From assembly GCF_006345805.1 (NCBI RefSeq), contig NC_043002.1, forward strand, positions 12,276,001 through 12,340,000: a stretch of DNA of 64,000 bases, written 5' to 3'. The stretch is from Octopus sinensis (Eukaryota). Made by a program: the position numbers. Numbering within the stretch: position 1 is the stretch's first letter; every line of letters starts with the position of its first letter. Shown in pieces: positions 21,518-23,958 of this stretch.

Positions 21518-23958
21518 ATATATATATATTATAAAATATATATCTTATATTATGTTGTGGTAACTGACTTCAAAGTTTCTGCTTACGGCCATACCACGTT
21601 AAAATCACTGGTTCTCGTTCGATCACCGAAGTTAGGTAAAGTAATCTAGTGAGTACCTAGACGGGTGACAACTTGGGAAACCGAGGTGCTGTAAGCGTCT
21701 CACACGCCTAAAGACGGTGCTCCAGCATGGCCACAGTCAAATGACTGAAACAATATGTGTAGAGGGTGCGACGGGTAAATAGTCAACGTCATATATTTCT
21801 AATGTGGCGCATGCGCATTGTTTGTGCTTGTTTTGTCGATTGCACAATATTCAAGGGTCAGTTGGAAACAGTCTGTGAGGAAAACAGAACCATGACGCAA
21901 TTCATTCTCCCAGAAATTTGGAAACGGCATGCAGTACCGATTGGCATTCACGCCGGAGGCTCCAATGCGAGCATTTCAAGGTGTGCATGTCAATCTGAGG
22001 TCATTGCAATCGGGGGACATGTACCGAGAGTGACAAAAACCAAACAGCCAGTCATCACCATGGGGTTTGGAGTGACCACTAGTGACAGCGACGTTATGCT
22101 TCCATTCGTCTACACACACGGCGTAAGACTCAATACGGTGGTCTACAGCAAGTGCCTGGAGGACGTAGTTCTGACCTGGATCAAGAGGGTGTTTGCTGAA
22201 AGACCCTATGCCTACCAAGAAGAATCTGCATCATGCCACAAAAGCAGAACATTGTGATGGCTGTCAGACAATTTCTGCGACCCCATCACCCGTAACAGCT
22301 CGCCACCTAACACCCCAAACTGCATCCCCTTGATTATTCTGTGTGGAGCGCAGTTGAGCAAGAGCCCGACAAAACTCCTTGTGACACCAAATATCAACTA
22401 AAGGCAAGGATTATGGCAGCATTCACCAACTTAAACAAGAAGAGTTGCGGGAGGTTCCAAAGTGGATTGGAGGCTGTGGTTGAATGATAATAATTATAAT
22501 ATTTGAAGATATTTTTATGTAATTTTGGTAAATATATTTGTTAAAATGAGGTGTCAGTGTTATTTTCATTTTGCGTAATTTAGTCTACAGTTTAGTCACT
22601 GCACCCTCTACATACATACATACAAATATATATATATATATATATATAATATATATATATATATATACATAATTTCTTTTGCTTGTTTCAGCTTAGAGCT
22701 GCGGCCATGCTGATGCACCGCCGTTTTGTGCTACACTGTTATTACGAAGAACCTCCTCTAATATGTGGCACTTGGTGAAGAATGGAGTTTGACATAGCTA
22801 CTCTCATTTGCACCTCTTGCCGTGAGGTAGGTTCATCTGGGACTCTCGACAGGAAGATGTCCAGCTTTGATTTAAAAACTGCTACATCTACTTTGTGCAA
22901 GTTCCTCAGACTCTTTGGGAGAATATTAAAAAGCATGGGCCCTTGAAACTCAGGCTGTTGCAGAAACTGGTCCTGAAGTGTGATGGCATTGCTGGGATCT
23001 TTGGCACTATGCAGTGTCGTCCGGTTCTAGCATTGGGGTACAATTTGGCACAATTCCTTCCAGGATCTTCCAGACATATATTACTGCATACCTCTCCCGT
23101 CTTCTCTCTAGGGAGTAGAGTCTTAGCTGTTTCAACCTTTCCCAGTAGCTGAGCTGTTCCAAAGAGACGATCTTCTTTGTGAATCTTCTCTGGATTGCTT
23201 CAAGGTCCGCTGTTAATTTTACACTGGTGGGTGACCATAGCTGTGAGCAGTAATCGAGGCGTCTGAGGAAGAATGTCCGCCAGAGGATCATCATGGTTTC
23301 CTTATCTCTGGTTCTGAATGTTCTTAGGATCCATCCAGCCAGTCGTCTGCACTTTGTCGCCATCCTGGTAATGTGCACTTGGAAAGAGTTATCATCAGTC
23401 ATGTCGGTACCCAGGTCCCTCACAGACTTAGGCTCTGGTATTGGAATTCCCTGTGGACCGGTGTATCCTGTAAGTTTAATATTCAGTTTTGGATGCTGGT
23501 AGCGCAGGGCCTGGAATTTTTCAGCATTAGACTGCATATTATTATCCTCAGCCCATCTGTAGATAGAGTCCAGCTCCTGCTGCAGGTGTGCAACATCGCT
23601 GGGGTTCTGTATTTTCTGCGAGACTTTCGTATCGTCTGCATAGCTTGCCAGAGTGGCTATCCGGACATTTGAGGGCATATCTGAGAGGGCCACTATAAAA
23701 AGCAGTGGTCCCAAGACAGTGCCCTGTGGAACACCGCTCACTATTTGTGTGTTCATAGATGTTGCTCCATTAACCACTACTGCCTGACTCCTATCTTTCA
23801 GGAAGTCATGTAACCACACTCCAAGTTTTCCAGCTATGCCGAGGTCACGCAGTTTGTGGCATATCATACCATGATGCACTTTGTCAAAAGCTTTTGCGAA
23901 TATTATTATTATTATTATTATTGTTATTATTATCATCATCATCATCTCATCATCATCA

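What the first reader, a model, noticed from the sequence alone, without database searches (positions are those of the whole stretch)
21581..21753. 5S rRNA head fused to the CR1-type SINE tail: candidate SINE3
Seen: a full-length but diverged 5S rRNA sequence with its internal control region, no poly-T terminator, a 12-bp linker, then the 45-bp tail shared with SINE C and the CR1 LINEs. Known: 5S-derived SINE3 families exist (e.g. zebrafish) and use CR1/L2-type tails, but they are much rarer than tRNA SINEs. Inference: either a short 5S-SINE family or a one-off RT template switch from SINE C RNA onto 5S rRNA.
Basis: partly seen in the sequence, partly recalled or inferred. Interest (0 to 1): 0.7.

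Follow-up and report, generated by a model that had tools for sequence, protein, structure and literature searches.

The report
5S-headed SINE-like retrocopy, probably octopod
A decayed copy of 5S ribosomal RNA is joined to the short tail that the local jumping genes use to get copied, which is the design of a rare "5S SINE", but one copy cannot show whether it belongs to a family or is a one-off accident.

Summary
Observation confirmed. Window 21581-21697 (+) is a full-length 5S rRNA homologue (Rfam 66.8 bits, E 7e-12, model 1-120), the only one in the window. After 7 nt comes a 49-nt stretch (21705-21753) that is 88-94% identical to the 3' end of seven copies of the window's abundant SINE and 65-67% to two LINE 3' ends. 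This tail forms two hairpins, with compensatory changes between SINE and LINE versions. There is no T4 inside; the first is at 21831. The design is a minimal 5S-headed (SINE3-type) element, like moth HaSE3. Chance juxtaposition is unlikely (about 0.001).

Family or one-off remains unsettled. The head has no second copy in 64 kb. Target-site duplications are undetectable here and in control SINE copies. The (GTAAAAGA)n end is missing. No octopod genome could be searched. I lean to a family member (0.45) over a single template-switch chimera (0.35). This copy looks dead. The papers I searched describe no molluscan SINE3, though two cephalopod genome papers give hints.

The parts
21581..21697 (+). 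5S rRNA-derived head, full length (model 1-120), diverged
   Evidence: Rfam 5S_rRNA 66.8 bits, E 7e-12. Only 5S hit in the window at E<=1. 6 of 34 model pairs non-canonical. No second copy by blastn with word size 7.
21698..21704 (+). 7-nt linker (TCTCACA) of unknown origin between head and tail
   Evidence: Lies between the end of the Rfam match and the start of the 49-nt tail homology. Similarity to the SINE sequence upstream of its tail is not above chance by eye.
21705..21753 (+). 49-nt LINE/SINE-type 3' tail, the putative RT recognition signal
   Evidence: 88-94% identical to 7 SINE tails, 63-67% to 2 diverged SINE tails and 2 LINE tails. 3 differences from the SINE tail consensus: 21707, 21714, 21733.
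21713..21732 (+). tail hairpin 1, outer stem weakened in this copy by G>A at 21714
   Evidence: Folds: SINE copy -17.8 kcal/mol (z -3.2), LINE tail -19.5 (z -4.1), this copy -10.7 (z -1.0). Helix 1 is 90.5% paired over 12 tails.
21734..21747 (+). tail hairpin 2 (5-bp stem, 4-nt loop), intact
   Evidence: In helix 2, 3 of 5 pairs have changes on both sides between SINE-type and LINE-type tails.
21831..21834 (+). first T4 downstream, where a Pol III transcript of this locus would be expected to stop (inference)
   Evidence: no TTTT in 21581-21753, first at 21831.
54591..54972 (+). reference full-length copy of the abundant resident SINE that carries the same tail. Other copies: 33942-34337(-), 34529-34872(-), 38800-39178(-), 12560-13033(-), 1565-1768(+), 2062-2181(-).
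   Evidence: The head has box A/B-like motifs by eye but is not recognised as tRNA by ARAGORN or Rfam.
22683..22725 (-). 3' tail of a degenerate LINE whose RT ORF lies at 23007-23996 (-)
   Evidence: RVT_1 E 5.5e-17. Coding frame ending ...VDVAVFKSKLDIFLSRVPDEP... upstream of the tail. Tail alignment and fold.
7521..7567 (-). 3' tail of a second LINE fragment
   Evidence: Coding-like frame with ...VDVFKKELDILLF... upstream. Tail alignment and fold.

Best explanation
The 173-bp unit 21581-21753 is a dead retrocopy of a chimeric Pol III RNA. It has a full-length 5S rRNA-derived head, a 7-nt linker, and the 49-nt two-hairpin tail of the resident SINE/LINE system. This is a minimal (head plus tail, no body) SINE3-type element.

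Proposed life cycle; every step is inferred and none was shown here.
(1) Founding event: a LINE reverse transcriptase copying the 3' end of a SINE RNA switched template, after about 49 nt, to the 3' end of 5S rRNA and copied it to its 5' end.
(2) The 5S internal (type 1) promoter drives Pol III transcription. With no T4 inside, transcription runs through the tail.
(3) The tail hairpins recruit the partner LINE's RT, which inserts new copies.

I lean to this copy being one member of such a family rather than the founding event itself. I put about 0.8 on the head and tail having been joined at the RNA level at all, and 0.45 on the family reading. This particular copy is inactive: 6 of 34 5S pairs are broken, hairpin 1 is weakened, and there is no microsatellite end.
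For: Shown:
- The 5S match is full length, from model position 1 to 120. The element therefore starts at the RNA's 5' end, and the junction sits at its 3' end.
- The tail lies on the same strand, 7 nt away, and is 88-94% identical to 7 SINE tails.
- The tail is a conserved two-hairpin structure shared by SINEs and LINEs. 89.6% of cells are paired, against 19-43% when partners are slid. 5 cells have changes on both sides, reached by 1 of 500 shuffles.
- There is no TTTT within the unit.
- Chance adjacency is about 0.0007-0.0018.

From papers (passages read):
- HaSE3 of Helicoverpa is a 5S head sharing its 3' part (94% identical) with the co-resident tRNA SINE HaSE1, attributed to template switching (PMC3272025).
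- An O. vulgaris repeat annotation lists a SINE subdivision '5S' (1 family, 7 recently active insertions) (PMC13282606).

Inference: family copies vastly outnumber founding events wherever a family exists.
Against: - Only one copy of the 5S head occurs in 64 kb, whereas the SINE with the same tail has 7 tail-bearing copies there.
- There is no (GTAAAAGA)n-type end, which every SINE-type copy carries in some form.
- No target-site duplication was found, although the controls lack one too.
- The decay of the head does not require a diverged master. SINE copies with 3 tail substitutions show 8-14% substitutions elsewhere. My estimate is that this would break about 4-7 of 34 pairs, and 6 are broken. 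The head could therefore be a direct copy of genuine 5S rRNA.
- Type 1 promoters are said to depend on upstream signals, so retroposed 5S copies tend to be silent (Kapitonov and Jurka as quoted in PMC3272025).
- The O. vulgaris '5S' entry covers 42,242 bp in 7 insertions, about 6 kb each. That is not SINE-sized, so it may be something else.
Confidence: 0.45

Rival explanations
1. One-off chimeric retropseudogene. A single template switch by a LINE reverse transcriptase from SINE (or LINE) RNA onto cellular 5S rRNA produced this locus directly, and it never amplified. It would be the same kind of product as the U6/5S-L1 chimeric retrogenes of mammals.
For: - Full-length small RNA at the 5' side, 5'-truncated retroelement 3' part on the same strand, and the junction at the RNA's 3' end.
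- The head is unique in the window.
- Head decay (6 of 34 pairs) is what the tail's 3/49 substitutions and the calibration on SINE copies would predict for a direct copy of real 5S rRNA (the expected number is my estimate).
- Template switching to small RNAs is the accepted origin of such chimeras (Buzdin et al. 2003, as cited in PMC4758252, and PMC4824008; that paper itself was not read).
Against: - Such single events are rare compared with copies of an established family.
- Cephalopod genome papers hint at many 5S-derived loci.
- No TSD and no microsatellite end, which a fresh target-primed insertion should also have left.
Confidence: 0.35
2. Unrelated neighbours. An old 5S pseudogene or orphon (a DNA-level stray copy of a 5S gene whose T-run terminator has decayed into the 'linker') happens to lie next to an independently inserted, severely 5'-truncated SINE fragment.
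For: - No TSD brackets the whole unit (best repeat is TATGT, 25 nt away from the 5' end; 237 of 500 shuffles do as well).
- The microsatellite end is missing.
- 5'-truncated SINE copies exist (2062-2181, 120 nt).
- By eye, the first bases after the 5S part could be a T-run changed at two positions (inference only).
Against: - From the window's own density of tails (11 others in 64 kb), a same-strand tail starting within 7-20 nt of a given point has probability 0.0007-0.0018.
- A 49-nt fragment would be the shortest of the 8 SINE-type tails seen; the next shortest is 120 nt.
- The tail has no TSD of its own either (best is GGTGC; 241 of 500 shuffles do as well).
Confidence: 0.1
3. A working or variant 5S rRNA gene.
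For: Full-length Rfam match well above the family cut-off. An AT-rich stretch lies upstream.
Against: - 6 of 34 pairs are non-canonical, and there are 3 deletions against the model.
- No T-run follows the gene; the first TTTT is 134 nt past the 5S end.
- It is a single copy, not a tandem array, in 64 kb.
Confidence: 0.02

Closest known systems
HaSE3 (5S rRNA-derived SINE of Helicoverpa armigera and related moths; PMC3272025, passages read)
   Same: A 5S-derived head joined to a 3' part that is shared, nearly identical, with a co-resident SINE (HaSE1) and with the 3' end of a partner LINE. The authors attribute its origin to a template switch from the SINE RNA to 5S rRNA. TSDs are absent from some copies. 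Its copy number is much lower than that of the tRNA SINE.
   Different: HaSE3 shares both the body and the tail with HaSE1, whereas here only the last 49 nt are shared and there is no body. The HaSE3 partner is an RTE-clade LINE with (TGA)n, whereas here it is an unclassified endonuclease+RT LINE with an 8-nt repeat end. HaSE3 is shown to be multi-copy (16 copies cloned, plus other species), whereas here one copy is known.
SINE3 of zebrafish and other vertebrates (Kapitonov and Jurka 2003; known to me only through citations)
   Same: A 5S rRNA-derived head with a Pol III type 1 promoter and a LINE-derived tail. Vertebrate SINE3 families are said to be mobilised by CR1-clade LINEs (PMC7245038).
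   Different: Vertebrate SINE3 / DeuSINE members carry a long central (Deu) domain (PMC4824008), and this unit has none. Membership of a multi-copy family is not shown here. The clade of the partner LINE was not tested.
Chimeric retrogenes made by LINE RT template switching (Buzdin et al. 2003; cited in PMC4758252 and PMC4824008; paper not read)
   Same: A full-length small Pol III RNA at the 5' side fused in the same orientation to a 5'-truncated retroelement 3' end.
   Different: As I recall, those are L1 products with poly(A) and clear TSDs. Here the tail is a structured, stringent-type signal, and no TSD or terminal repeat is visible.
5S-derived loci of the giant squid Architeuthis dux (PMC6962438, passage read)
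   Same: [quoted passage not shown]
   Different: It is a decapodiform, while this window is probably octopod.

Membership tests
SINE, 5S-derived class (SINE3), by the SINEBase definition (PMC3531059) | Short (<1 kb), interspersed, non-tandem | tested here: met
   173 bp. A single 5S match in 64 kb, not tandem.
SINE, 5S-derived class (SINE3), by the SINEBase definition (PMC3531059) | Head homologous to 5S rRNA (at least 60% identity over at least 60 nt) | tested here: met
   Full-length Rfam match, 66.8 bits against a cut-off of 38. By my hand count on that alignment, 69 of 120 positions equal the all-life Rfam consensus, and 40 of 64 in model positions 42-105. The species' own 5S rRNA was not available.
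SINE, 5S-derived class (SINE3), by the SINEBase definition (PMC3531059) | [quoted passage not shown] | not testable with these tools
   No genome of the source organism was held. The prokaryotic collection has 0 hits to the junction and 0 to the SINE tail. Only 1 copy occurs in the 64-kb window.
SINE, 5S-derived class (SINE3), by the SINEBase definition (PMC3531059) | Copies share substitutions or indels with a source gene that differ from the cellular RNA (distinguishes a SINE from an RNA pseudogene), or carry extra sequence | tested here: inconclusive
   The extra sequence (linker plus LINE-type tail) is present. Shared diagnostic substitutions cannot be judged from one copy. Head decay is compatible with direct derivation from real 5S rRNA.
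SINE, 5S-derived class (SINE3), by the SINEBase definition (PMC3531059) | 3' tail shared with a partner LINE | tested here: met
   Two LINE 3' ends in the window (22683-22725 and 7521-7567, both minus strand) carry the same two-hairpin design, with 65-67% identity and compensatory changes in hairpin 2. One of them has an RVT_1 ORF.
SINE, 5S-derived class (SINE3), by the SINEBase definition (PMC3531059) | Internal Pol III type 1 promoter (box A, IE, box C) and read-through to the tail | not tested
   No T4 within the unit. The boxes themselves were not scored because no reference motif was available from a tool. Transcription was not assayed.
Copies of the resident SINE/LINE system (same retroposition machinery) | Terminal (GTAAAAGA)n-type repeat after GAAACAA | tested here: not met
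   All 7 SINE-type copies show at least a degenerate unit. The 5S unit is followed by TATGTGTAGAGG.
Copies of the resident SINE/LINE system (same retroposition machinery) | Target-site duplication | tested here: inconclusive
   None for the 5S unit (237 of 500 shuffles as good). Of 6 control SINE copies, none has a convincing one either: 74-298 of 300 shuffles are as good in 5, and the sixth lies in a (TA)n run.
Template-switch chimeric retrogene (Buzdin type) | Full-length small RNA 5' part, 5'-truncated retroelement 3' part, same orientation, junction at the RNA's 3' end | tested here: met
   Model 1-120 matched. The tail corresponds to the last 49 of 382 nt of the SINE, on the same strand, 7 nt away.
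Template-switch chimeric retrogene (Buzdin type) | Single or very low copy number | not testable with these tools
   Same limitation as for the copy number above.
Functional 5S rRNA gene | Intact fold, T-run terminator directly downstream, usually in tandem arrays | tested here: not met
   6 of 34 pairs non-canonical. First TTTT at 21831. A single copy.

The most novel reading that the evidence does not exclude
This is one copy of a so far undescribed 5S-headed SINE family in octopods. That would be the first SINE3 described in Mollusca. It would have an unusually minimal design (5S head, 7-nt linker, 49-nt stringent tail, no body), born by template switch from the octopus-specific SINE. It might be related to the roughly 24,000 uncharacterised 5S-derived loci of the giant squid.
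Probability: 0.4. Interest if true: 0.45.

Novelty: new member of a known kind. Interest (0 to 1): 0.3.

Why it matters
5S-derived SINEs are the rare class of SINE. Reviews that I read in passages list them only in fish, reptiles, mammals and some insects (PMC7245038; PMC10946416). Octopus genomes are dominated by lineage-specific SINEs (PMC8967140).

A 5S-headed element that borrowed only the last 49 nt of that SINE would show two things: how small the transferable recognition module of the partner LINE is, and how new SINE classes arise by head swapping. If it is only a one-off chimera, it is still a clean natural record of RT template switching by a stringent-type LINE, but of minor interest.

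Tried and rejected
1. Only window.fa was held. The junction pattern was validated on the window and gave 0 hits in the prokaryotic genome collection. A 30-nt core of the abundant SINE tail also gave 0 hits there. That collection therefore holds no octopod-like DNA, and the negative result says nothing.

2. TSD test: no repeat better than shuffles for the whole unit, the 5S part alone, the tail alone, or tail plus linker (237, 390, 241 and 266 of 500 shuffles as good). The control on 6 SINE copies shows the test has no power in this system.

3. Head-versus-tail divergence, to tell a diverged master from genuine 5S rRNA: this needs the species' 5S rRNA, which no tool could supply. The 1983 paper with cephalopod 5S sequences is not held. 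A comparison with 5S sequences as I recall them suggested the head is more diverged than the tail. It rests on memory, depends strongly on which reference is recalled, and is not used as evidence. The base-pair count (6 of 34) fits the decay expected from the calibration on SINE copies, so it does not discriminate.

4. Second copy of the head in the window: none, by blastn with word size 7 or by Rfam at E<=1.

5. tRNA origin of the resident SINE's head: not recognised by ARAGORN (0 genes) or by Rfam on the head alone (only a chance CRISPR-repeat match, E 0.087). I call it tRNA-like by eye only.

6. Clade of the partner LINE ('CR1'): not assignable. Pfam gives only RVT_1. In the protein search, 1 of the 120 listed hits carries an organism name (Argonauta hians, 58% identity).

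7. Link between the 5S unit and the inverted-repeat element just upstream (20970-21553), which also lies next to a SINE at 54997-55318: the arrangements differ, so I rejected it as coincidence.

8. Literature: 8 searches were answered. None listed a paper describing a cephalopod or molluscan 5S-derived SINE. Only one paper holds 'SINE3' together with a cephalopod word (PMC5804259), and its passages do not describe one. Searches were loosely framed (min_terms 2) and mostly returned unrelated cephalopod papers. Table S1 of PMC13282606 (all O. vulgaris repeat families) and the supplements of PMC6962438 may bear on whether 5S SINEs are already catalogued. Repbase and Dfam could not be consulted.

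9. (TTTT over the whole window) was a badly framed call. The answer was obtained.
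Full report
WHAT IS THERE

The Rfam search at curated thresholds finds exactly one RNA family in the 64-kb window: 5S_rRNA at 21581-21697 on the + strand. It scores 66.8 bits (cut-off 38), E 7e-12, and covers model positions 1-120 of 120. Relaxing to E<=1 adds no further 5S match; the other listed hits are sub-threshold microRNA-type matches on (TA)n/(TG)n runs. The sequence is a diverged 5S. Twelve positions, which is 6 of the 34 model base pairs, are marked non-canonical, and there are three deletions against the model (counts read by me from the alignment). 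There is no TTTT in 21581-21753, and the first downstream lies at 21831. It is therefore not a working 5S gene: it has no terminator, a damaged fold, and no tandem array.

THE TAIL

A 41-mer from 21713-21753 recurs 4 times at <=3 mismatches, and a 23-mer recurs 7 times. None was expected by chance, and 0 of 100 shuffles gave any. Sensitive blastn finds the tail at 11 other places, while the 5S head finds only itself.

Seven of those places are 3' ends of one abundant SINE of about 380 nt. It has a head with box A/B-like motifs, an internal (TA)n/(TG)n run, and an end of the form GAAACAA followed by (GTAAAAGA)n. Neither ARAGORN nor Rfam recognises its head as tRNA.

Two further places are diverged tails (3196-3246, 62286-62336). 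Two are LINE 3' ends on the minus strand, 22683-22725 and 7521-7567. Each is preceded by a coding frame with a shared ...VDV..FK..LDI.L... motif. For the first, an RVT_1 reverse-transcriptase ORF lies at 23007-23996, and its relatives carry endonuclease plus RT domains.

Homology of the 5S unit to the SINE tail begins at 21705 in 5 of the 6 ungapped tail hits. The parts are therefore head 21581-21697, linker 21698-21704 (7 nt) and tail 21705-21753 (49 nt). The tail is 88-94% identical to the seven SINE tails and 63-67% to the diverged and LINE tails. It differs from the SINE tail consensus at three positions: 21707, 21714 and 21733. The donor was thus the SINE-type tail, or an unsampled LINE with the same tail.

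WHAT THE TAIL IS

SINE and LINE tails fold into two adjacent hairpins: SINE copy -17.8 kcal/mol (z -3.2), LINE at 22681 -19.5 (z -4.1). On the 12-tail alignment, 89.6% of cells pair, against 19-43% when partners are slid by 1-3 columns. Three of the five pairs of hairpin 2 change on both sides between SINE-type and LINE-type tails; that is 5 cells, reached by 1 of 500 shuffles. By established knowledge of stringent-type LINE/SINE pairs (Kajikawa and Okada 2002, known to me from reference lists only), this is the expected look of an RT recognition signal. In the 5S unit the G>A at 21714 breaks the outer stem of hairpin 1 (-10.7 kcal/mol, z -1.0).

ORGANISM

The single hit in the RT search that carries an organism name is from the octopod Argonauta hians (58% identity, 1 of the 120 listed). 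Papers state that SINEs dominate octopus repeats and are scarce in squids (PMC8967140, passages). The window is probably octopod, but this is not established.

HOW THE TWO PARTS CAME TOGETHER

A same-strand tail beginning within 7-20 nt of a fixed point has a probability of 0.0007-0.0018, given the window's own density of tails. A 49-nt fragment would also be the shortest SINE remnant seen; the next shortest is 120 nt. The unit begins at 5S position 1, and the junction sits at the RNA's 3' end. This is what template switching by a reverse transcriptase from a retroelement RNA onto a small RNA produces. The papers I read invoke that mechanism both for chimeric retrogenes and for the birth of 5S SINEs (PMC4758252; PMC4824008; PMC3272025). 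I put about 0.8 on an RNA-level fusion.

FAMILY OR ONE-OFF

The evidence runs out here.
No genome was held. The only open DNA collection is prokaryotic, and it contains neither the junction nor the SINE tail.
- TSDs are undetectable for every way of cutting the unit and equally for six genuine SINE copies, so they decide nothing.
- The missing (GTAAAAGA)n end counts against any fresh target-primed insertion, whether family member, one-off or independent fragment.
- In seven SINE copies, tail divergence of 0-6% goes with 4-14% elsewhere. Copies with 3 tail changes show 8-14%. By my estimate that would break about 4-7 of 34 pairs in the head, and 6 are broken. The fold is thus compatible with a direct copy of real 5S rRNA and gives no sign of a diverged master.
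- A proper head-to-5S-rDNA comparison needs the species' 5S sequence, which I could not obtain.

My lean to a family (0.45 against 0.35) rests on two points. First, family copies outnumber founding events wherever a family exists. Second, there are two hints in print. [quoted passage not shown] A 2026 O. vulgaris annotation has a table of recently active insertions with a SINE subdivision '5S': 1 family, 7 insertions, 42,242 bp (PMC13282606). At about 6 kb per insertion, the latter may not be a SINE at all.

COMPARISON WITH KNOWN SYSTEMS

The closest described case is HaSE3 of Helicoverpa. It has a 5S head plus the body and tail of the co-resident tRNA SINE HaSE1 (94% identical), a partner RTE LINE, an origin attributed to template switching, and some copies without TSDs (PMC3272025). 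The present unit differs in sharing only the 49-nt tail and having no body.

Vertebrate SINE3 / DeuSINE members carry a long central domain. By the SINEBase definition the unit meets the size, head-homology and LINE-tail criteria. The copy-number criterion (at least 100) and the diagnostic-substitution criterion could not be tested, so I do not file it as a SINE family, only as SINE3-like in design.

NOVELTY

Reviews read in passages list 5S-derived SINEs in fish, reptiles, mammals and some insects (PMC7245038; PMC10946416). My 8 answered literature searches found no described molluscan or cephalopod one. If a family exists it is a new member of a known kind in a new phylum. If not, it is an ordinary chimeric pseudogene.

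VERDICT

Interest is modest (0.3).

Noticed in passing
window 20970-21553; related copy 54997-55318: An inverted-repeat (foldback or MITE-like) element lies directly upstream of the 5S unit. Its arms, 20970-21209 and 21329-21553, are 68% complementary over 242 nt. A related copy (70-87% identity in pieces) lies next to the SINE at 54591-54972. Its nature is unknown.
   Followed up: partly
window 22683-24601 (-): A degenerate LINE: RVT_1 ORF at 23007-23996, a further ORF at 24203-24601, a C-terminal frame ending before 22745, then a hairpin tail and a single GCAAAAGA unit running into (TA)n. It lies tail-to-tail about 930 bp from the 5S unit. Relatives carry endonuclease plus RT domains. Its clade was not assigned.
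   Followed up: partly
window 7521-7900 (-): A second LINE 3' fragment. It has a premature stop inside a frame that stays similar to the other LINE beyond the stop (compare ...SNYIIHQ... with ...SNSILHQ...), and a tail ending in (GAATAAAA)-type repeats.
   Followed up: partly
window, whole (for example 1565-1768, 2062-2181, 12560-13033, 33942-34337, 34529-34872, 38800-39178, 54591-54972; more diverged pieces at 1139-1435, 2979-3242, 33759-33925, 40414-40627, 59422-59557, 60741-60923): Very high density of one SINE family and its relatives, each with an internal (TA)n/(TG)n run. Two copies abut in opposite orientation at 33759-33925 (+) and 33942-34337 (-).
   Followed up: partly
window, many sites (for example 5360-5480, 6930-7125, 25926-26047, 30820-33420): More than 100 sub-threshold Rfam 'microRNA' matches (mir-297, mir-3149, mir-1277, mir-466 and others) all lie on (TA)n/(TG)n microsatellites and are below the family cut-offs. 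They are not genes.
   Followed up: no
window 21763-22257 (+): A stop-free frame of 164 codons begins 10 nt after the 5S unit. It has no Pfam match. It may be chance or part of an unrecognised element.
   Followed up: partly
window 62001-64000: Strong strand asymmetry at the right end of the window (GC skew -0.50, AT skew -0.23 in the last 2 kb). It was not examined.
   Followed up: no
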